Below, in pieces: positions 4,099 through 60,265 of a DNA stretch of 64,000 bases. The notes beneath the pieces were generated by a model. The model searched no databases. It saw nothing but the letters and a program-made list of their open reading frames with translations, and was not told the DNA's origin. The DNA is from a virus: positions 32,001 to 96,000 of IMG/VR virus record IMGVR_UViG_3300010373_000001; one strand, written 5' to 3'. The position numbers were made by a program, and so were the translations under genes. Position 1 is the first letter of the stretch. The number at the start of each line of letters is the position of its first letter.

Positions 4099-7000
4099 AG
4101 CTTCCTGCCTGTACCGATTGACTTCAGCACATCTTCTGACGACAGATGCCTGACAATCTGGTCAGCTATCATGCGACCCGACTTGGATGCATCAAACTCG
4201 CCACCATGATCAACGTTAACAACGATAGCACTTGCCCCAAAGTTAAGGTGGATATTCATTCCTCTTGAACTGAACTTATCGTGAACGATATCTCTTTCGC
4301 CCGGTATTCTCCACGGGTTCTGTGCGGGCAGTGCGTGCTGCCCCTTAAGAAGATGCATAGTATCCGCATTGCTTCTTACCTGAGCGTCCTTGCCAAAGTT
4401 AACTAGCTCGGGTCCACGGTCACCTACAACTCCCCAGCTACCGGCTTTAGGATCTCCACCACCTGAGTACCAGTTGTGTGCTAGATGGAATGCTTTAGCA
4501 CCAGAAGGTGTCTTGTACCTTCCAGCTACATAGTTAAGCATCCATAGTTCCTGAGTCTTAGGGTCAGCATTGCCGCCCATTGAAACAGGTCGTCCAGCTT
4601 GCGGATACTTAGAAGCAGGGAGAGCCTGGGCAATTCCGAAAGCACCAGATGATCCTGGTCCCGGATTCATTCCGGTAGAACCACCTTCCCAAACCAGATT
4701 GTTATAACCTGATTCAGCCATAACAAGCCAGTCCAGTGCATCCCATTGAGGACCACTGCCCCAGCCATATGCACCAGCAAGCTTCTTCATCAGCGTTTTG
4801 TTCTGACCTATAGTGCCGCCGCCAATGATACCGCCTGTCGGACTGTGACCAGTCCGACCGCGATTTTTTCTGTTACCGCCAGCAGATAGGGGACTAGCTG
4901 AGCCCATTAGCTGAGCCGCAGCACCACCACCTCCACCAGCACCAGCTAGCGCGGCAAGTTCACCGATATTACTTGCGGCCCCAGCTTCACTGAAGTTGAT
5001 ACCCGAAGATGCTGCACCACCTATAGATGATCCTGAGTCACCAGTGTTACCAGTAATAGTATTACCTGGGCCACCGCCTATAGGCTGAGACATACCACCG
5101 CCGAGGCCACCTTTAACTCTGGCAGCGTGTGCCCATTCACCGGGATTGTATCCACGGATTGTTACATCAGCACCAGTATGAGGAGCTTCGATGATCTGCC
5201 TGTTGTTAATCATCATGGCTTCGTGGCCAGGATTGTTGGGTGTACCGAATGAGCCAGCGGCAAACAGAATGTCACCAGCCTGAACAGAATTTCTTGCTAC
5301 CGCTCTCTTGCTAAGGAACTGCCACTGCTCTTCAGATGTTCTGGGTAGCCTGACACCAGCCTGAGCATAAGCGTACTCAATAAGACCAGAGCAATCGAAA
5401 CCTGTCTGCGGAGAATCCCCGCCCCATACATAAGGTGTACCTACAAATTGCTCAGCAATCTTAACAGCATTCAGTGCGGAAGCAGATGCCCCGCCTGTAG
5501 CTGATCCCTTATTGCCTTGCTTCTGGCTGGACTGTGGCACTGAACCACCAGCACCACCAGAACGGTTAGGCTGCATGTTACCAAATCTTGCATTGAAAGC
5601 AGCTTGACCACCGCCCCCACCACTGAAGAGGCCACCTATATCATGTAGTAATGTGCCCCAGCTATTCCATGCGGAATTAGGTCCACCTGGACCTTGCTGA
5701 AGCATTGTGGTCCCGTTCTTATTGTGCATAGAGTTAAGACCAAGAAGAAGGGCACCGACCCCAGCAGTACCTACGGCACCACCTAAAGTCAATCCTCCAA
5801 GTCCAAGCTTAGCCAGCATACCGCCTTCTGCTGCGCCTGTTCCGCCAGCTACCAATGAACTAGCAGCACCACCTGTCAGCATTCTTCTCATGATAAGACC
5901 CTGAACCATGCCACCGCCAATTGTGTTGGCTAGATGACTGGCAGCACCTCCACCCAGAGAACCAGCAAATCCCCCGGCGAATCCACCTGGGCCTGACAAT
6001 CCCATTGTGTTCATCAGGCTTGTCAAAGCTGAGTTGAATGACTCAAGAGTTCCTGTAGCGGCAGTCAATCCGGCATTAAAACCGTTAGCTATATCAGCTT
6101 GCCTTGAAGTTCCGATAGCCTGGTTGTTCTTGATCTTCTGAATGTCTGTAGTAGACACACCAAGGTCAGACAGTCTTTGCTGGGCAGCTTTCATGCTACC
6201 GACTGTTCCTTGAGAAGCCTGATTGATAAGAGACTGAGCCTGATTAGTATTCAGTCCGCGCTGGAAAAGCTGGTTGTATGCCTGAAGGAAAGGTGTCATC
6301 TGTGTTGGGTTCAGACCAAGAGCCTGAATAGATGCGTTAGCCCTTCCTCCCATTCCCAGTCCTTTATCAAGGGCCGATGATGAAACAGATCTTCTGCCAC
6401 CATACAATCCCTGAATAAGAGACTGAGCAATCATAGCTGAGGATGCGGGAGGCCCGCCACCCAATCCCCTAGGTGTTACGGGGAAACCCATAGCCATCAT
6501 TCTCTGGCTAAGGGTTGGGCTGTAAAGCTGCTGAGCTAGTGCTGATGACTGCTGCATTGACAGCATAGGATTAGAAATCCCGAATGCTGCTGTAGCGCCA
6601 AAACCTGCACGTCCAAGCGAAGTAGACATGAAGCTAGGGCTTCCGCCTAGATACTGCAATTGCTGAGCACCAGCTATAGCATCAAGCGGACTGGCAGCAA
6701 GAGCGTTAAGGTTAGTGTTGTTAACACCGAATGCCTGACGGAAACTCATAGACTGTGCGGCCTGATAGCCGTTGCCTATGTTCATTCCCAGTCTGGACAT
6801 ACTAGCGTAAGCATTCATGCCAAGCTGAGTACGCATCATAGAGCTTCCCATGCGGGAAAATGCTCCGTAAACTACTGAACCTGTACCACCTGAAGGAAGA
6901 GGATTCATACCTCCACCGCCGCCAGTGGTAGCACTTAGCATACCGAATGTCATAGGCGGTCTTACATTACCTGCACCACCAGGACCACCGCCACCTATTC

Positions 7001-41345: not shown

Positions 41346-42974
41346 TCACTTCTCCCACGGCCATGCGGCACTATGAGAACGCTCGATAAGATCCATCATC
41401 TTGAACGCGCTATCAGTCAGACCAGCCAACTGATGCCTCCTGCCATTTCCGCTAGGAATGTCTCCCTGAGCGTACCCTGACAGATCGAAAGCGTATAGGT
41501 AAGTGCTTTCGGGAACAGAGTCACTTACGTTACCTCCGTAACCGTACCCACCATAGCTACGGCTTCCCATTGACTGCATGTCAGTGAATACCACTGCCCT
41601 CTTGGTAGATGGGCTAGTAGTAGTTCTGATTGATTCAGCAGTGTTGGTGCCGTGGCCAACCGCACCGATCATACGGTTAACCTTCTCAATCTGCCTTAGC
41701 AGTGAGCCGCCACGCTCTACCTTTACTTCCCTTACGTTGTCAGCGAAGATGAACAGTCTGCTGTCCGGGTTTCTCATTGCCGTAGCAATACCGAACAACG
41801 CCCCTGCTTCTGCTCTTCTGATGCTGCTCTTGTTAGACATACCCGTATCCATTGACGCCGAAGTGTCAACGTATACGTCAGTTCTGCCGTTAAGCAGCGG
41901 AATGTTTCCTACTGACAGTGTTAGGGCTTCCTCAAGAGAGTGAGCCCATGCTGTGCTGGAAGCATTCTTGTAAGCTGACCAGTAGCGGAATGGGAACTGC
42001 CTGCCCCTAGCAACAATCTCAGGGTTGCACAGATCAGCCTGTACCTTAGCAATAGTTGCCTTAGATACACCAGCCTCCTGCATGTTCCTCAGGTTTCTCA
42101 GCATAGCCATGTGGCCAACTGATCCGCCCATGATAAGAGCATCCCACAGCTTACCCTTGTCCAGCTTAGAACCGGCAAGAGATAGCGCATCTTCCCACGT
42201 CATACCCGCAAACTTCAGGGATGAAGGATCAAGCAGAACGCTAGGATCACTCGCAGCCTGAGCGCGAAGATCAGCGTTGAACCTGATCATAGGAAGGTTA
42301 GACAAATCGAAGTCTGCCTCGTTTCCGTAACGACGGGTCATAGCGTAACGGTACAGATCACTCTGACTATCCACGCCAAAGGTTCTTGGGTGAGTCATCT
42401 GAATAACGTCACCGAAACGCCACCCCTTAGAAGAGGTGTCGTACTTAAGAAGAGAGTACTCGTTGAACAGCCTGTTAGCTGCGTCAGCAAGACCTCTCTT
42501 AACAGCAGAAGGAATAGTCCTGCCGAACTTCTCAGTCCAGTAGGCAGCCAATTCCCCCGGCTCGTCTGCACGCTGGGGAACAGCACTGATAAACAGCCTG
42601 TTCATACCCTTCTCGCCGCGCTCAATAGAACCATCTTCAACACCAGCCGCTAGTCTTGCGTGTACAGCATGAGCCGCACCCATAAGAGAAGCAGTTCTGA
42701 TGTTACCTTCCTGACGTAGCCACCTTAGGAAACTCAGCAGCCATGCAGGATCAGTGATAGCAATCTGCTCAACTAGAGCAGTAAATCTCTTGTCGCGGGA
42801 CTTACCACTCTCGTAGAAAGTATCTTCTCCCGCGAACATGTTAACGCCAAGGCGGAACAGTTCACCATAGGCGTCATTGACATAACCAGTCCCGCCCTCA
42901 TAAGTAACCGCAGGGCCAACCGTCGTAATTGGTGACGTAGCCGTAACGATCTTCTTGGTGTTCAGTCTTGACAT
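41346..42974 (-). CDS. rsr: Ro60/Rsr ortholog (TROVE domain plus vWA domain), 542 aa
   Basis: DTFYE, R..GNIR, QRADE, DVI.M.HP, TWE, MAMLRNLRN, QFPFRY..AY, MIDAS DTSASM...GT...FTD.Q; start at MSRLN with GGAGG RBS. Confidence 0.92.
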   Translation of the reverse strand: MSRLNTKKIVTATSPITTVGPAVTYEGGTGYVNDAYGELFRLGVNMFAGEDTFYESGKSRDKRFTALVEQIAITDPAWLLSFLRWLRQEGNIRTASLMGAAHAVHARLAAGVEDGSIERGEKGMNRLFISAVPQRADEPGELAAYWTEKFGRTIPSAVKRGLADAANRLFNEYSLLKYDTSSKGWRFGDVIQMTHPRTFGVDSQSDLYRYAMTRRYGNEADFDLSNLPMIRFNADLRAQAASDPSVLLDPSSLKFAGMTWEDALSLAGSKLDKGKLWDALIMGGSVGHMAMLRNLRNMQEAGVSKATIAKVQADLCNPEIVARGRQFPFRYWSAYKNASSTAWAHSLEEALTLSVGNIPLLNGRTDVYVDTSASMDTGMSNKSSIRRAEAGALFGIATAMRNPDSRLFIFADNVREVKVERGGSLLRQIEKVNRMIGAVGHGTNTAESIRTTTSPSTKRAVVFTDMQSMGSRSYGGYGYGGNVSDSVPESTYLYAFDLSGYAQGDIPSGNGRRHQLAGLTDSAFKMMDLIERSHSAAWPWEK

Positions 42975-43065
42975 TGTTACCTCCATAGATAACTGAAGCC
43001 ACTGTCTGAGCAGCTTCATTGACAATCTGGTCACATAAAACTGCCACATTCAGTGGCTTGAAAGG

Positions 43066-43146
43066 ACCAGAGAAATAATCGAATACAGTATCTTGTGTTA
43101 TTTGATAGTTGTAAATAGTGAAGTAACTGTATTCTTCGCATCTGGT
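43066..43146 (-). ncRNA. Y-RNA-like scaffold copy 1 (short A/U-rich insert)
   Basis: accAGA-TGCGAA-GAATACAG-TTACTTC...CTGTATTC-GATTATTTC-TCTggt. Confidence 0.75.
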
Positions 43147-43165
43147 ATAAATATTTAAATGTAGA

Positions 43166-43294
43166 GCCTGAGAAAAAATTTAGCGGCCGGAAATGAGATG
43201 TTATCTCATGCGGGCTCCACGCCCAGCATCGCCGTGATTGGTGGCGATGAATAGAATCGAACTATTGAAGTATCCGTTTGCATTCACTTCAGGC
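43166..43294 (-). ncRNA. Y-RNA-like copy 2 with tRNA permuted at the variable loop
   Basis: Scaffold enclosing T arm, catcgcc-A-CCA-atcac-ggcgatg acceptor, D arm, anticodon arm atgag-ATAACAT-ctcat. Confidence 0.75.
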
Positions 43295-43303
43295 AAACTT
43301 TGA

Positions 43304-43445
43304 TGGCTTAGAGAAAAAGTCGGAGTCAGAAATTTTTAGCGCTCTGCCAACTGAGCTATACCCCGGTGTTGTCGGGGCAACAGGATTCGAACCTGTGACC
43401 TCTCGTTCCCAATACGAAGTAACTGTTTCCTGCACTTCTAAGCCA
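43304..43445 (-). ncRNA. Y-RNA-like copy 3 with tRNA-Pro(TGG) permuted at the D/anticodon junction
   Basis: ttcgt-ATTGGGA-acgag, aggtc, T arm, tgccccg-a-caacac-cggggta, D arm gctc-agttggca-gagc. Confidence 0.8.
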
Positions 43446-43452
43446 AGATTTA

Positions 43453-43592
43453 TGTTCTGAGAAATAGTCTAGTACGGTGTCTTATGGGCAGGCACTCTAC
43501 CAATTGAGTTACAAGAGTCTATGACTCCAGACAGGATTCGAACCCGCAGCTTCCTGCTATACGGAAGTATCCGTGCTATTCACATCAGAACA
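43453..43592 (-). ncRNA. Y-RNA-like copy 4, YrlA-type topology (opened in the anticodon loop)
   Basis: gcagg, T arm, loop-closed acceptor, D arm actc-aattggta-gagt, cctgc inside the scaffold. Confidence 0.8.
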
Positions 43593-43599
43593 AAACTAG

Positions 43600-43708
43600 T
43601 ATCAGAGGAAAAGTCGAAAACGGAAAAGGCACCAGCCCATATACCAGGGAATCGAACCCTTGGTACTCGATTGTTGGAGAGAAGTAACCGTTCTCTTCAC
43701 ATCTGATA
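43600..43708 (-). ncRNA. Y-RNA-like copy 5 with T-loop hairpin insert
   Basis: Scaffold GAGAACGG/CCGTTTTC; insert taccaaggg-TTCGATT-ccctggta. Confidence 0.72.
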
Positions 43709-43711
43709 TAG

Positions 43712-43783
43712 AGACACCTACTGGATTCGAACCAGCGTAACAGGTTTTGCAGACCCGTACCTAAACCACTCGGTCAAGGTGCC
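43712..43783 (-). tRNA. tRNA-Cys(GCA)
   Basis: Loop CTGCAAA, U73. Confidence 0.92.
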
Positions 43784-43791
43784 GTAAAGAG

Positions 43792-43943
43792 TGTGCTAGA
43801 GGAAAGCTAAAGAGAGTGGAATATCTATTTCATTTCACTACCGGCTGTTGCCAGCCGACTTGGACTCGAACCAAGAATTATTAATTTACAGTTAATTGTG
43901 TTTACCTTTTAAGAAGTAACCCTCAACAAACACTTCTAGCACA
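43792..43943 (-). ncRNA. Y-RNA-like copy 6 with GTA-anticodon tRNA permuted in the D loop
   Basis: ggtaaa-cac, attaa-CTGTAAA-ttaat, T arm, tcggctg-GCAA-cagccgg, ta-gtg. Confidence 0.75.
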
Positions 43944-43956
43944 TTCAGTTATATGC

Positions 43957-44070
43957 CCAGAGGAACAAACTTGATCAGGGAAATTTCGACCTCCGGGCTA
44001 TGAACCCGGCGCTCTATCTGAGCTAATGCGCAAATGCTGCGTATGAAGTACCTGTTCAATTCACTTCTGG
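43957..44070 (-). ncRNA. Y-RNA-like copy 7 with CAT-anticodon tRNA permuted in the T loop
   Basis: acttc, atacgca-gcatt-tgcgcat, gctc-agata-gagc, ccggg-TTCATAG-cccgg, aggtc, gaaat. Confidence 0.75.
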
Positions 44071-44076
44071 AACTAG

Positions 44077-44149
44077 TAGTCAGTCTGAGATTCGAACTCA
44101 GGAACCCTAGCTTATGAGACTAGTGCCCTATGCCTCTGGCTTACCGACT
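44077..44149 (-). tRNA. tRNA-Met/Ile2(CAT), elongator-type
   Basis: Loop CTCATAA. Confidence 0.85.
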
Positions 44150-44153
44150 TTAT

Positions 44154-44376
44154 ATGGCTAGTTTCCCTCCATAGCCGGGGAGTGATAGAAGGGGCTGTCT
44201 GCCCTTAATCCGGAGAACAGAGTTGACATTGTATCCGGAAACTACGTAATGGCGCTACCCATATCTAATCTCAGAGTGGCCCCTGACTGTTATCCTTTAT
44301 CCCTCACCAGTTGGCCTTGGAAACAAAGGGCACTAGATTTACGTATACTTTATGGCCCAGCCTGTTCTGTAGCCAT
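44154..44376 (-). ncRNA. Candidate ~220-nt structured RNA inside the Y array
   Basis: Terminal atggcta/tagccat stem plus several long-range complementarities; no credible ORF. Confidence 0.45.
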
Positions 44377-44467
44377 TATTCAGTCACTATCTACAACTCT
44401 CCGTCGAGAGTTGTTAGTGATGGTAACAGTTCTGACACTGTTACCACCTTGGACGGACCAACAATTG

Positions 44468-44539
44468 TCCAGAGGAAATGCCGGTATTAGTTTACGTGTC
44501 CGTCCTGGCGTTGAAGTAACTAAAACCTTCACATCTGGA
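44468..44539 (-). ncRNA. Y-RNA-like scaffold copy 8 (minimal insert)
   Basis: tccAGA-TGTGAA-GGTTTTAG-TTACTTC...CTAATACC-GGCATTTCC-TCTgga. Confidence 0.72.
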
Positions 44540-44545
44540 ACTTAG

Positions 44546-44619
44546 TTGCGGAGACAGGATTTGAACCTGTGACCTCTGGGTTATGAGCCCAACGAGCTAC
44601 CGAACTGCTCCACTCCGCG
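44546..44619 (-). tRNA. tRNA-fMet(CAT), initiator
   Basis: C1:A72 mismatch, GGG/CCC anticodon stem. Confidence 0.93.
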
Positions 44620-44629
44620 TTGAATTAGA

Positions 44630-44698
44630 ATCAGAGAAATAATCGTTAAGGGTATTTTTTTCTGCTTAAAAGAAGTATCCCGTAACTGCGCTTCTGAT
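44630..44698 (-). ncRNA. Y-RNA-like scaffold copy 9 (minimal insert)
   Basis: atcAGA-AGCGCA-GTTACGGG-ATACTTC...CCCTTAAC-GATTATTTC-TCTgat. Confidence 0.72.
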
Positions 44699-44703
44699 CA
44701 CAG

Positions 44704-44777
44704 TACTCCTAGAGGGATTCGAACCCTACGCTGCCACCTTGAAAGGGAGGTGTCCTTGGCCGCTAGACGATAGGAGC
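44704..44777 (-). tRNA. tRNA-Glu(TTC)
   Basis: Loop CTTTCAA. Confidence 0.9.
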
Positions 44778-58763: not shown

Positions 58764-58934
58764 TTAATCCACTAACATCGCCTTGAATATCAATTCAGTA
58801 TTATTCGTTATCTCTTCCAGATAGCCGAGGATAACGGCTTTAAGATCGTCATCGAACTCGTCACCGTTATCCTCGACTTCCTGGTACAGTTCATCAGCAA
58901 GATTGCTGATTTCCCTGAGGCTTGCTGTGTCCAC
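58764..58934 (-). CDS. Small acidic protein (56 aa)
   Basis: Manual translation from GTG: MDTASLREISNLADELYQEVEDNGDEFDDDLK... Confidence 0.45.
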   Translation of the reverse strand: MDTASLREISNLADELYQEVEDNGDEFDDDLKAVILGYLEEITNNTELIFKAMLVD

Positions 58935-59368
58935 TAAAAATCTCCGTCATCTACCTGCAATGTCCTTATGCCGATCTTCCTCCACATTGCGACAACCTGA
59001 GAGCGGTCGTCTATGCAGACGAGGATATCATAGTGTTCAGCGATGTGCTCACGGAAAATCTCGTACTTGATTATGAAATCTTTACGGTGATCTCCCGTTT
59101 TACGCATGAGTAGCAGATAAGAACCGGGCTCAAACCCGAATCTTGCCAGCCACTCAATTGTGGCTTCACGACAGGAATCTTCCCTGCCAGACACGAAGAT
59201 GATGCTGTTACCAGCATCCTTAAGTGCTGCAACTACTTCGATTATTTCCGGGATGGGAAGGTCATCAGAGACTTTAGAGTACTCATAGTGACCTCGCATC
59301 TGCTCGCCCACCTCGTTATAGTGGGAAGCCATCGTACCGTCAAGATCAACGATGATAGCTCTCGGCAT
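58934..59368 (-). CDS. HAD 3'-phosphatase (T4 PNKP/PseT phosphatase-domain-like)
   Basis: VDLDGT, VSGR, LLMR..GD.R.D...K, DDR.QV..MWR..G...LQV..GDF. Confidence 0.85.
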   Translation of the reverse strand: MPRAIIVDLDGTMASHYNEVGEQMRGHYEYSKVSDDLPIPEIIEVVAALKDAGNSIIFVSGREDSCREATIEWLARFGFEPGSYLLLMRKTGDHRKDFIIKYEIFREHIAEHYDILVCIDDRSQVVAMWRKIGIRTLQVDDGDF

Positions 59369-59410: not shown

Positions 59411-60265
59411 CTAAACCACCCACTCCATCGTCTTTGTGTTCAGAACAAACCAGTTGCCCGGTGTGCCATCCATATCCAGGCCGTCTACTCTTACTTTGGC
59501 CCAGTTCGTGCTGAGAACCCTTGTGTACTGTCTGTGCATGTGTCCATGCATAAGGTACTCTGGCTGAACTTCGTTAACTATGCCCTGAAGCAAGTTTCTG
59601 TGTGCGTCAGCTTCTTGTGTTTCCTTATGCGGGAACATGCCTACAGGAAGATCAAGAAATACCATAGACGGGCAGTCATGCGTGATCATAACATCACACT
59701 TTCCGCCAGCCTTGATAAACTCTGCCTGCTCTGGTGTGATAGTCTCCTGAGTCCACCAGGACTTGTTCAGTACCCGCCATTGCTTATCAACTGATACTGC
59801 ACCACCACAGGCAAGCCACTTCCTGTTATGCCACTCCCACCTTTTGCCTCGCGGCAGATGGAATAGGTTCTCCCTTATCTGTACAGAGCCGTCCCAGATG
59901 TTACTTCCTAGATCCGGTACTGTGTATCTGCGTGCTCTGTTCTCAAGATGCCTGAAATTCTCATGATTACCATCAATGAAGAACAGTACTGCATCGTGCT
60001 TCATTAGTGCCGCACTGATTTTCCTGCGGTACTTCTCGCCGCCTTTTCCTGGCCAGATACCAAAATCCCCAAGATGAAGGATCAGGGGATATGGTTCGTC
60101 CTTGAGAACTTCAGAAGCTTTCCTGATAGTCTCGTACGCCCAGAGGTTGTTTCCGTGCCAGTCTCCAGCGACTACGATTTTTTCCGGGATCGGCTTGTCC
60201 CGAAGAACTTGCGGCAGCAAGAAGCTCGTCGCCTCTGCTGTCATTGCCGTCATCATTTTCAACAC
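59411..60265 (-). CDS. Calcineurin-like metallophosphoesterase (start uncertain)
   Basis: GDWHG, LGDFG, DGNHE, GGA.SVD, THDCP, HGHMH. Confidence 0.88.
   Translation of the reverse strand: MLKMMTAMTAEATSFLLPQVLRDKPIPEKIVVAGDWHGNNLWAYETIRKASEVLKDEPYPLILHLGDFGIWPGKGGEKYRRKISAALMKHDAVLFFIDGNHENFRHLENRARRYTVPDLGSNIWDGSVQIRENLFHLPRGKRWEWHNRKWLACGGAVSVDKQWRVLNKSWWTQETITPEQAEFIKAGGKCDVMITHDCPSMVFLDLPVGMFPHKETQEADAHRNLLQGIVNEVQPEYLMHGHMHRQYTRVLSTNWAKVRVDGLDMDGTPGNWFVLNTKTMEWVV

What the first reader, a model, noticed from the sequence alone, without database searches (positions are those of the whole stretch)
43166..44070. Each cargo tRNA is circularly permuted at a different position
Seen: five scaffolds enclose a tRNA cloverleaf whose acceptor stem is closed by a short linker, and the opening that joins the scaffold differs each time. 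Copy 2 opens in the variable loop (order T, acceptor, D, anticodon). Copy 3 opens between the D and anticodon arms. Copy 4 opens in the anticodon loop, copy 6 in the D loop and copy 7 in the T loop. Established: described YrlA RNAs use the copy-4 topology, with the Ro stem in place of the anticodon arm. Copies 2, 3, 6 and 7 keep a complete anticodon hairpin (AAC, TGG, GTA, CAT). Inference: this is a panel of tRNA mimics exposing different faces, for example decoys for anticodon nucleases or tRNA-modifying toxins, or tethers recruiting different tRNA-binding enzymes to Ro60. It also implies repeated independent capture of circularised tRNA sequence into the scaffold.
Basis: partly seen in the sequence, partly recalled or inferred. 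Interest (0 to 1): 0.95.

Follow-up and report, generated by a model that had tools for sequence, protein, structure and literature searches.

The report
Phage Y RNAs carrying differently permuted tRNAs
A soil phage encodes, just upstream of its Ro60 gene, nine small RNAs that share one Ro60-type docking stem. Five of them carry a tRNA-shaped body joined to that stem at five different places, a layout conserved in related phages and wider than the single layout published for bacterial YrlA RNAs.

Summary
On the minus strand, 43067-44697, nine units share a scaffold: a covarying lower stem, GAWGYG, a covarying upper stem and a conserved UACUUC. They lie just upstream of a TROVE/Ro60 gene inside a 33-tRNA array.

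Copies 2, 3, 4, 6 and 7 give no tRNA call as they stand. Re-joined at the scaffold and opened at the acceptor linker, they score 104.7-120.5 in ARAGORN (genuine tRNAs here: 105-123.5). None of 300 random segments gave a call under the same search.

The junctions differ: variable loop (c2), 26/27 (c3), anticodon loop (c4, the published YrlA layout), D loop (c6) and T arm (c7).

These layouts are old, conserved classes, not a local accident:
- The c3 class has 62 members with strong covariation.
- The c2, c6 and c7 classes each have 3-4 orthologues with compensatory changes, in phages whose Ro60 is about 45% identical.
- Two further layouts occur in relatives.

Bodies are conserved but the anticodon triplets vary freely, even between strains. 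Function (Ro60 adaptor or tRNA decoy) is inferred, not shown. I found no published description of several junction types. This scan has noted phage Ro60 and Y-RNA arrays on other DNA before.

The parts
41346..42977 (-). Ro60 (TROVE) gene directly downstream of the RNA array. The ORF as listed runs to 43049.
   Evidence: Pfam TROVE E=3.4e-17. 2502 homologues at E<=1e-10, aligned full length with bacterial TROVE proteins at 46-47% identity.
43067..43146 (-). Copy 1: scaffold only, no tRNA-like cargo.
   Evidence: The MFE fold gives the lower stem and a 9-bp upper stem, z=-3.8. No ARAGORN call. Orthologue at L002:5887.
43167..43293 (-). Copy 2, type C: the scaffold opens the variable loop. T arm 43266-43250; acceptor 3' strand 43249-43243; linker A-CCA-AUCAC 43242-43234; acceptor 5' strand 43233-43227; D arm 43224-43212; anticodon arm (AAC) 43209-43193.
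   Evidence: ARAGORN Val(AAC) 111.7 after re-linearising. The MFE fold reproduces all four arms inside the scaffold. Orthologues L008:5780 and L147:533 have compensatory acceptor and T-stem changes.
43307..43442 (-). Copy 3, type B: junction between positions 26 and 27. Anticodon arm (UGG) 43418-43402; variable loop AGGUC 43401-43397; T arm 43396-43380; acceptor hairpin 43379-43359; D arm 43356-43341.
   Evidence: ARAGORN Pro(UGG) 120.5. Rfam YrlA 32 bits, partial match. 62-sequence alignment with 94.8% of cells paired and covariation 0.559 against 0.171 in shuffles.
43456..43589 (-). Copy 4, type A: the published YrlA layout. T arm 43547-43531; acceptor hairpin 43530-43512; D arm 43509-43494. 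The anticodon stem is made of 43557-43553 and 43492-43488 and leads into the scaffold.
   Evidence: Rfam YrlA model positions 1-114 matched, 31.2 bits, below the gathering score of 69. The unit is absent from contigs of two other soil metagenomes, which join 43443 to 43591.
43602..43706 (-). Copy 5: scaffold with a T-arm-like hairpin and small hairpins, not a full cloverleaf.
   Evidence: No ARAGORN call. Fold. Similar unit at about L008:5625.
43796..43939 (-). Copy 6, type D: the scaffold opens the D loop. D loop plus D 3' strand 43912-43898; anticodon arm (GUA) 43896-43880; T arm 43875-43859; acceptor hairpin with GCAA loop 43858-43841; D 5' strand 43838-43835.
   Evidence: ARAGORN Tyr(GUA) 119.8. 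In four orthologues (window, L008:4964, L016:4877, L162:2526) all stem positions pair except the A.A at the outermost D-stem position (13:22) in the window and L008. There are compensatory changes, including in the D stem that spans the opening. In one strain 43806-43909 is replaced by 100 other letters.
43957..44070 (-). Copy 7, type E: the scaffold replaces the T arm. Acceptor hairpin 44044-44026; D arm 44023-44011; anticodon arm (CAU) 44009-43993; variable loop 43992-43988; GAA 43987-43985 pairs with the UUC of UACUUC (44050-44045).
   Evidence: ARAGORN Met(CAU) 104.7. Orthologues L002:5414 and L008:4790. In strain variants the loop reads CUCAAAA instead of UUCAUAG.
44469..44538 (-). Copy 8: scaffold only.
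44631..44697 (-). Copy 9: scaffold only.
   Evidence: Orthologue in L002 at about 5044.
43711..43783 (-). tRNA-Cys(GCA), a normal tRNA interleaved in the array. tRNA-Met 44076-44149, tRNA-Met 44545-44619 and tRNA-Glu 44703-44777 are interleaved in the same way.
   Evidence: ARAGORN and Rfam. Copies 5, 7, 8 and 9 start 4-8 nt after a tRNA 3' end.

Best explanation
These are Y RNAs of the YrlA kind, the partner RNAs of the phage's own Ro60 protein. Each has two modules.

The first is a common docking scaffold. The two RNA ends pair in a lower stem. Next come a conserved GA(A/U)G(U/C)G strand opposite a U-rich strand, an 8-9 bp upper stem, and the conserved UACUUC (the 'YUAY' of published YrlA).

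The second is a cargo at the tip. In five units the cargo is a tRNA-shaped body whose acceptor stem is closed by a linker. The scaffold joins that body at a different point in each: variable loop, 26/27, anticodon loop, D loop or T arm. The L-shaped body should therefore project from the Ro60 ring in different orientations and expose different parts, including an intact anticodon-type loop in four units.

Shown here: the anatomy, its tRNA-likeness, and its conservation with covariation as distinct orthologous classes in a phage lineage.

Inferred:
- The scaffold binds Ro60.
- The array is co-transcribed with the tRNAs and cut out by the tRNA-processing enzymes.
- The tRNA-like modules recruit or distract tRNA-binding proteins: adaptor or decoy roles in RNA surveillance or counter-defence.
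For: Scaffold:
- There are nine copies whose lower and upper stems differ in sequence but stay complementary.
- The same scaffold occurs 2-8 times upstream of Ro60 in 121 related loci, including the cultured Streptomyces phages Alone3 and BRock.
- Rfam YrlA matches c3 and c4 below threshold, with UACUUC aligned to the model's AUGCUU.
- Chen 2014 describes a 5' Ro-binding motif and a conserved YUAY.

tRNA-likeness:
- ARAGORN calls tRNAs only after re-linearising, against 0 of 300 controls.
- The T loops read UUCGAnU and the D loops carry A14 and G18G19. The Levitt pair is G15:C48 in c3 and A15:U48 in c4.
- In the type B alignment the 15:48 pair is G:C 33 times, A:U 25 times and other 3 times.

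Conservation of the layouts:
- Type B: 62 sequences, 26 of 35 pairs with changes on both sides, 0 of 500 shuffles as high, and slid controls no higher than 0.126.
- Types C, D and E each have 3-4 orthologues with compensatory changes.
- L008, whose Ro60 is 46% identical, carries the same unit types in nearly the same order among the same tRNAs, with some rearrangement and one extra type.

The hairpin in type B has anticodon-arm hallmarks: U33 in 64 of 65, R37 in 61 of 65, A38 in 62 of 65, followed by a 5-nt NGGUY variable loop, with 31 different triplets at 34-36.

Precedents:
- YrlA is a tRNA mimic thought to tether Ro60 to an effector.
- The phiLo phage Ro60 binds phage Y-like RNAs and host PNPase.
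- A Ro60-like protein of phage Bas63 counters the ppl defence.
Against: - There is no direct evidence of transcription, Ro60 binding or any effector. No RNA run holding this DNA was available.
- The Rfam YrlA scores (31-32 bits) are far below the gathering score of 69.
- The window's 5' motif, GA(A/U)GUG, only loosely matches the published GNCGAAN0-1G.
- MFE z-scores of single units are modest (-0.2 to -3.8).
- The freely varying anticodon triplets could mean that the loop is simply unconstrained. In L008 the type E loop is a GCGG tetraloop.
Confidence: 0.72

Rival explanations
1. Two-piece, possibly chargeable tRNAs. In units with a 7-bp acceptor stem, RNase P cuts 5' of position 1 in the linker and the 3' piece is trimmed to, or given, CCA. 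The result is a nicked tRNA held together by the acceptor and scaffold helices. It carries a free CCA end and a Ro60-docking 'extra arm'. For type C this resembles a class II tRNA with a long variable arm.
For: - The c2 linker reads discriminator A, CCA, then 5 nt, although none of the 33 ordinary tRNAs encodes CCA.
- N-CCA also starts the linker in L008 type C, L016 and L162 type D and L052:5475, and in 10 of 132 linkers against about 2 expected by chance.
- M. smegmatis YrlA is cut by RNase P and receives CCA in vivo (Chen 2014).
Against: - Many linkers are stable tetraloops: GCAA in c6, and UUCG or CUCG in type B. That argues for acceptors that stay closed.
- c3, c4, c6 and c7 have no CCA.
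- Position 8 of c2 is C rather than U.
- No RNA ends could be observed.
Confidence: 0.2
2. Decoys for anticodon-directed host defence nucleases or tRNA-modifying toxins. The anticodon-type loops imitate the targets, and Ro60 (with a host exonuclease) handles the cleaved decoy or sequesters the nuclease.
For: - Bodies are conserved while triplets at 34-36 vary. There are 31 triplets in 65 type B units, GUA/AUC/GAA/GAA in type D and AAC/CAU/CAU in type C.
- Between strains, 3 of the 4 substitutions in copy 7 fall in the 7-nt loop, changing CAU to CAA.
- U33 and R37 are kept.
- The phage carries a full tRNA set, a PNKP-type 3' phosphatase and a metallophosphoesterase.
- The Ro60-like gp130 of Bas63 counters a defence system.
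Against: - A variable triplet is also what no constraint would give.
- The L008 type E orthologue has a tetraloop instead of an anticodon loop.
- No nuclease partner is known.
- No RNA ligase is found in the phage.
Confidence: 0.2
3. Permuted precursor tRNAs, as in Cyanidioschyzon. The scaffold would be excised, the ends ligated and the acceptor linker opened, giving ordinary decoding tRNAs.
For: The topology is formally that of permuted tRNA genes with varied junctions (discussion in Wang 2018). The re-linearised scores fall within the range of real tRNAs.
Against: - The 33 linear tRNAs already cover all 20 amino acids, and UGG, GUA and CAU duplicate them.
- Anticodons are not conserved among orthologues or strains.
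- c4 has no anticodon loop, and c7 lacks a T loop and G18G19.
- The scaffold is shared with cargo-less units next to Ro60.
- The genome holds no RtcB, Rnl1, Rnl2-type ligase or CCA-adding enzyme.
Confidence: 0.04
4. Non-functional debris: broken or rearranged tRNA genes left by recombination within the tRNA array.
For: The units lie inside a tRNA array. Units come and go between strains: copy 4 is deleted and the copy 6 cargo replaced.
Against: - Each layout is conserved with compensatory base changes in phages whose Ro60 is about 45% identical.
- The tertiary 15:48 pair covaries.
- The scaffold motifs are nearly invariant.
Confidence: 0.03

Closest known systems
YrlA (Y RNA-like A; Rfam RF02553), the tRNA-mimicking Y RNA bound by bacterial and mycobacteriophage Ro60/Rsr (Chen et al. 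2014, PMC4201824; structure in Wang et al. 2018, 10.1101/312249)
   Same: - It is encoded next to Ro60.
- A terminal stem carries a conserved purine-rich 5' motif and a conserved YUAY.
- The cargo has a T arm, a closed acceptor hairpin and a D arm with tRNA tertiary signatures, including a covarying 15:48 pair.
- Copy 4 has exactly this layout.
- The published 'V' stem-loop 5' of the T arm corresponds in position to the hairpin of copy 3.
   Different: - Published YrlA has one layout, with the Ro stem in place of the anticodon stem and 'no anticodon loop'. Here the join lies at the variable loop, the D loop or the T arm, or between 26 and 27. Relatives also join at 7/8, at 65/66 and at the open acceptor end.
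- Four units have full anticodon-type loops.
- There are nine units in one array.
- The Rfam scores are less than half the gathering score.
Circularly permuted tRNA genes of Cyanidioschyzon merolae and other algae and archaea (Soma et al. 2007, as cited in 10.1101/312249)
   Same: The 3' half precedes the 5' half. The acceptor ends are joined by a short linker. The junction positions vary between genes.
   Different: Those are precursors of ordinary decoding tRNAs, processed at a bulge-helix-bulge motif through a circular intermediate. Here the ends form a Ro60-type Y RNA stem shared with cargo-less units, the anticodons are redundant and not conserved, and no ligase is encoded.
Yrl1/Yrl2 of Thermus phage phiLo with phage Ro60 (PMC12135203)
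   Same: Phage-encoded Y-like RNAs lie upstream of a phage Ro60 gene. Binding to phage Ro60 and to host PNPase has been shown there.
   Different: phiLo has two RNAs, described as stem-bulge-stem, and the paper's text mentions no tRNA-like module.
Deinococcus radiodurans Yrn1
   Same: It is a Y RNA with tRNA-like features whose T and D elements are oriented differently from YrlA, so more than one layout has a precedent (Chen 2014).
   Different: Yrn1 has only a partial D arm and a 6-nt 'anticodon' loop. It is one RNA, not a panel.

Membership tests
YrlA / bacterial Y RNA (RF02553) | Encoded beside a Ro60 (TROVE) gene. | tested here: met
   The array ends 90 nt upstream of the TROVE ORF start at 42977. 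The arrangement is the same in 121 related loci.
YrlA / bacterial Y RNA (RF02553) | A terminal stem formed by the 5' and 3' ends, with the conserved 5' Ro-binding motif (GNCGAAN0-1G) and the conserved YUAY. | tested here: inconclusive
   The stems covary. YUAY is present as UUAC or AUAC in all nine units. The 5' motif is GA(A/U)G(U/C)G in the window, and CGAAGUG or CGGUGCG in relatives. That is similar to, not identical with, the published motif.
YrlA / bacterial Y RNA (RF02553) | Cargo in the order T arm, closed acceptor hairpin, D arm, with the scaffold continuing from the anticodon stem and no anticodon loop. | tested here: not met
   Only copy 4 meets this. Copy 3 meets it only if its hairpin is read as a V arm. 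Copies 2, 6 and 7 have other arm orders.
YrlA / bacterial Y RNA (RF02553) | Score at or above the Rfam gathering threshold (69 bits). | tested here: not met
   c3 scores 32.0 bits and c4 31.2 bits. The other units give no match.
YrlA / bacterial Y RNA (RF02553) | Physical binding to Ro60, and modification by tRNA enzymes (TruB, DusA). | not testable with these tools
   This needs RIP or EMSA and modification mapping.
tRNA (RF00005), as a fold | Cloverleaf with 7-bp acceptor, D, anticodon and T arms and the conserved tertiary nucleotides. | tested here: met
   The test is met after in-silico re-linearisation only. ARAGORN scores are 104.7-120.5, against 105.4-123.5 for the genuine tRNAs. c7 lacks a T loop and G18G19, and c4 lacks an anticodon loop.
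Permuted pre-tRNA genes (Cyanidioschyzon type) | Processed to a decoding tRNA: a needed anticodon, a splicing-type junction, and a ligase. | tested here: not met
   The anticodons are redundant with the 33 tRNAs and vary among orthologues. The phage has no RtcB, Rnl1 or Rnl2. A host ligase is not excluded.

The most novel reading that the evidence does not exclude
A lineage of soil phages maintains a standing 'wardrobe' of Ro60-docked tRNA mimics, built in at least eight circular-permutation layouts, whose anticodon loops diversify quickly. Some members, those with an encoded N-CCA in the acceptor linker, are opened by RNase P into two-piece molecules with a CCA end. The panel would work as bait or adaptors for anticodon- or elbow-recognising host factors such as defence nucleases, synthetases and modification enzymes. 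It would couple them to Ro60-directed RNA decay and so protect the phage's own 33 tRNAs.
Probability: 0.22. Interest if true: 0.9.

Novelty: new variant of a known kind. Interest (0 to 1): 0.74.

Why it matters
Y RNAs are thought to work as tethers whose variable module chooses the partner of Ro60, yet the partner of the tRNA-like module of YrlA is still unknown. This locus offers a natural series in which the same docking stem holds a tRNA body by five different 'handles', with two more in relatives, and with anticodon loops that vary freely. Whichever face must stay exposed for function can be read from which layouts bind which proteins.

The finding also shows that tRNA-finding software and annotation miss or mislabel these genes. 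One unit of Streptomyces phage Alone3 is deposited as tRNA-Ser. Unpermuted members are called as suppressor or Tyr tRNAs.

Cultured relatives exist for experiments (Streptomyces phages BRock and Alone3). A link to counter-defence has a precedent in the Ro60-like gp130 of phage Bas63.

Tried and rejected
- The search for related loci with the single protein found nothing in viral contigs. The alignment query worked, but no locus above 51% Ro60 identity was returned.
- blastn of the array against the phage collection hit only ordinary tRNAs.
- The look-up of sequencing runs listed no RNA holder, so expression and RNA ends could not be examined.
- The promoter and terminator scan found no more sites than in shuffles.
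- A GAAGU/ACUUC hairpin within the scaffold was considered and rejected. The two motifs are not complementary in GC-rich relatives (GGUGCG against UACUUC), and the enclosed segment pairs with the 3' strand instead.
- Folding the region 5' of the T arm on its own with RNAfold gave noisy loop sizes. I replaced it with a register-based count.
- My automatic unit finder and element-chain classifier made errors. It missed copy 2, overran some 3' ends and produced chance 'Acc-D' chains. The census figures from it are therefore approximate. The orthologue tables were parsed by hand.
- Literature searches found no paper describing several junction types. Two reviews by Sim and Wolin were not held.
- Searches of the phage genome for RtcB, Rnl1, Rnl2-type ligase and CCA-adding enzyme were negative. 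The Rnl1 control rang in no control genome, so that negative is weak.
Full report
SETTING

The window is part of a complete 115,610-bp virus record with direct terminal repeats. Everything relevant lies on the minus strand. There are 33 ordinary tRNA genes covering all 20 amino acids and, embedded among them, a 543-residue TROVE/Ro60 protein at 41346-42977. That protein has thousands of full-length homologues.

The closest named phages with this gene are Streptomyces phages of about 112-116 kb, such as BRock and Alone3, at 37-40% identity. They have the same 'Ro60 inside the tRNA array' arrangement. Near-identical DNA occurs in soil and rhizosphere metagenomes from many studies.

THE REPEATED SCAFFOLD

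Between the Ro60 start and tRNA-Glu lie nine units:
- c1 43146-43067
- c2 43293-43167
- c3 43442-43307
- c4 43589-43456
- c5 43706-43602
- c6 43939-43796
- c7 44070-43957
- c8 44538-44469
- c9 44697-44631

Each unit begins NNNGA(A/U)G(U/C)G and ends UUYCUCNNN. The NNNGA and UCNNN parts differ between copies but always stay complementary. An 8-9 bp upper stem likewise differs in sequence but pairs. Directly after its 5' strand comes a nearly invariant (A/U)UACUUC, followed by the cargo. Single-sequence folding recovers both stems in all nine units.

Rfam's YrlA model matches c4 over its full length (31 bits) and c3 in part (32 bits), both below the gathering score of 69. In those matches UACUUC aligns to the model's conserved AUGCUU. 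Chen et al. 2014 describe the same ingredients for YrlA: a purine-rich 5' motif thought to contact Ro60 and a conserved YUAY.

Copies 5, 7, 8 and 9 begin 4-8 nt after the 3' end of a tRNA. No promoter or terminator signal exceeds the shuffled expectation. I therefore infer that the array is co-transcribed with the tRNAs and released by tRNA-processing enzymes. This is not shown.

THE OBSERVATION

ARAGORN calls nothing in the native units, or in whole units placed in tandem. I then removed the scaffold and joined the two cargo ends, scanning about 1000 trim combinations per unit. Under that search it calls:
- c2 as Val(AAC), 111.7
- c3 as Pro(UGG), 120.5
- c4 at about 112, with an arbitrary anticodon created by the trimming
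- c6 as Tyr(GUA), 119.8
- c7 as Met(CAU), 104.7

It calls nothing in c1, c5, c8 or c9. The same procedure on 300 random non-tRNA segments of the window gave no call at all. The genuine tRNAs score 105.4-123.5.

- c2 runs T arm, acceptor hairpin, D arm, anticodon arm. The scaffold stands where the variable loop would be.
- c3 runs anticodon arm, 5-nt variable loop AGGUC, T arm, acceptor hairpin, D arm. The join is between positions 26 and 27.
- c4 runs T, acceptor, D, with a 5-bp anticodon stem formed by the two flanks. This is the published YrlA layout.
- c6 runs D loop and D 3' strand, anticodon arm, T arm, acceptor hairpin, D 5' strand.
- c7 runs acceptor hairpin, D arm, anticodon arm, variable loop. 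Then only GAA pairs with the UUC of the scaffold's UACUUC, so the scaffold takes the place of the T arm.

Two details fit this reading. The c7 D loop (AGAUA) lacks G18G19, as expected if there is no T loop to dock on. The 15:48 tertiary pair is G:C in c3 and A:U in c4.

ARE THE LAYOUTS REAL RNA STRUCTURES?

I collected 160 loci encoding Ro60 relatives of 40-51% identity from IMG/VR and JGI metagenomes. Scaffold units cluster directly upstream of Ro60 in 121 of them, usually 2-5 per locus. The cultured phages BRock and Alone3 have four to five units, none annotated as such.

Type B (c3 layout). An alignment of 62 units gives 94.8% of cells paired, against 73.2% after shuffling. 26 of 35 pairs have changes on both sides. 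The covariation score is 0.559 against 0.171 in shuffles (0 of 500 as high) and no more than 0.126 when partners are slid. The 15:48 pair is G:C in 33 units, A:U in 25 and other in 3.

Chen et al. called the hairpin 5' of the T arm 'V'. In these phages it sits in the exact anticodon-arm register. With a 5-nt spacer to the T stem, 36 units have 5 of 5 pairs, against 12 or fewer in any other register. Without my imposing them, the loop shows U33 in 64 of 65, a purine at 37 in 61 of 65 and A38 in 62 of 65. The spacer reads N-G-G-U-Y. I therefore read it as an anticodon arm followed by a class I variable loop.

Types C, D and E. The AT-rich relatives L002, L008, L016, L147 and L162 are syntenic with the window. 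L008 is a 116.5-kb contig whose Ro60 is 46% identical. It carries ten units of the same types in nearly the same order among the same tRNAs (Glu, Met, Met, Cys). The copy-5-like unit sits in a different position, there is an extra unpermuted unit, and no clear copy-1-like unit is present.
- Type D (c6) has four members. All stem positions pair in all four, except the A.A at the outermost D-stem position (13:22) in the window and L008. There are many compensatory changes. These include the D stem whose two strands lie on either side of the scaffold opening: G-C becomes U-A, and A.A becomes U-A.
- Type C (c2) has three members, with fully compensated acceptor stems and a compensated T-stem change.
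- Type E (c7) has three members with an identical D arm, a covarying anticodon stem, GG-less D loops, and GAA in the position to pair with UACUUC.

Relatives add further layouts:
- a join at 7/8 (L049, L069, L073)
- a join at 65/66 (L052)
- an unpermuted form whose 5' acceptor strand is the scaffold's own ACUUCA (L008, L147, L162). ARAGORN calls the L008 member directly as a tRNA(UUA); its anticodon is suppressor-like. A similar unpermuted unit in L016, which has its own acceptor stem, is called tRNA-Tyr(GUA).

WHAT VARIES

Bodies are conserved, but the triplet at 34-36 is not:
- Type B has 31 different triplets in 65 units.
- Type D has GUA, AUC, GAA and GAA.
- Type C has AAC, CAU and CAU.
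- Type E has CAU, CAA and, in L008, a GCGG tetraloop.

Contigs from other soil metagenomes were laid on the window. They show three things. Copy 4 is cleanly absent in two studies, where 43443 joins 43591. The copy 6 cargo (43806-43909) is replaced by 100 unrelated or highly diverged letters in one strain. In copy 7, three of the four substitutions fall in the 7-nt loop, turning UUCAUAG into the CUCAAAA also seen in L002. The array is therefore modular and its loops change fast.

ORIGIN

The re-linearised cargoes are 0.60-0.73 identical to their best tRNA match. That is the level at which the window's unrelated tRNAs resemble each other (median 0.69), and the cargoes are 0.47-0.62 identical to one another. 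c3's best matches are tRNA-Pro(UGG) genes of related loci, and it has C1-G72 and A73, so a Pro ancestry is plausible.

There is no sign of recent capture from this phage's own tRNAs. The layouts predate the divergence of phages whose Ro60 is only about 45% identical. The published model, origin from tandem tRNA transcripts, could generate any junction: any tRNA-length window on a tandem tRNA repeat is a circular permutation with the spacer as linker. It would also explain the linkers that begin with discriminator plus CCA: c2 here, L008 type C, L016 and L162 type D, L052, and 10 of 132 linkers overall. None of the 33 ordinary tRNAs encodes CCA.

HOW IT PROBABLY WORKS

The best-supported reading is that these are Ro60 partner RNAs of the YrlA kind. 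The shared scaffold docks on the phage Ro60. The different joins hold a tRNA-shaped module in different orientations, leaving different faces free: elbow, acceptor end or anticodon loop.

Three precedents bear on this. YrlA is a close structural tRNA mimic with an unknown effector. Thermus phage phiLo Ro60 binds two phage Y-like RNAs and host PNPase. A Ro60-like protein of phage Bas63 counters the ppl defence system.

Two sharper versions remain open. One is a two-piece, CCA-ended form after RNase P cleavage, as shown for M. smegmatis YrlA. The other is a decoy role against anticodon-directed nucleases. The second is suggested by the variable loops and by a PNKP-type 3' phosphatase and a metallophosphoesterase further along the array.

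Maturation into ordinary tRNAs is unlikely. The anticodons are redundant and unstable, two cargoes are incomplete, cargo-less units share the scaffold, and the genome holds no RtcB, Rnl1, Rnl2-type ligase or CCA-adding enzyme. Junk is excluded by the covariation.

NOVELTY

[quoted passage not shown] In the held literature I found no description of a panel of distinct junction positions, of full anticodon-type arms, or of arrays this large. Two reviews could not be read. Earlier notes of this scan report phage Ro60 and Y-RNA arrays, and one unpermuted tRNA chimera, on other DNA. The general phenomenon has therefore been seen before in the scan. The multi-junction panel with orthologue support is what this window adds. 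I class it as a new variant of a known kind.

Noticed in passing
window 44179-44411 (-): A match to the manA RNA motif (RF01745) lies between copy 8 and tRNA-Met, inside the Y-RNA/tRNA array. It covers model positions 1-192 at 42.2 bits (E=5e-9), below the gathering score of 55.2.
   Followed up: no
L082:2229-2302 (Streptomyces phage Alone3, OR725492.1 10920-10993): The deposited feature 'tRNA-Ser(gct)' is in fact the 5' half of a type B Y-RNA unit: scaffold 5' strand, anticodon-type hairpin, T arm and acceptor 3' strand. The true partner of that acceptor strand lies downstream, followed by a D arm and the scaffold 3' strand.
   Followed up: partly
L008:5197-5279, L147:240-322, L162:2813-2897; also L016:5175-5248: These are unpermuted tRNA-like cargoes inside Y scaffolds. 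In the first three the scaffold's own ACUUCA serves as the acceptor 5' strand. Their anticodon loops carry UUA, AAC and CUA; the first and last are suppressor-like. The L016 unit has its own acceptor stem. ARAGORN calls the L008 and L016 units as tRNA(UUA) and tRNA-Tyr(GUA).
   Followed up: partly
L002:5523-5620: A T arm, a possible acceptor hairpin and a D arm with a flank-formed anticodon stem lie between two Y units, apparently without the usual scaffold motifs.
   Followed up: no
window 43444-43590 and 43806-43909: Strain polymorphism in other soil metagenomes. Contigs of two studies lack copy 4 exactly. One contig keeps the copy 6 scaffold but has 100 different letters in place of the cargo.
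   Followed up: partly
window 58934-59368 (-) and 59411-60265 (-): A stand-alone PNKP-type HAD 3' phosphatase (Pfam HAD_PNKP, E=3e-46) lies next to a calcineurin-like metallophosphoesterase at the far end of the tRNA region. These are parts of an RNA end-healing kit, with no kinase or ligase found.
   Followed up: partly
window 43602-43706 (-), L008 about 5625-5755, L005:5426, L007:5430: Copy 5 belongs to a further conserved cargo class. A hairpin right after UACUUC has a CCAA(C)AAU-type loop, followed by a T-arm-like hairpin and a small GC hairpin. It is not a cloverleaf.
   Followed up: no
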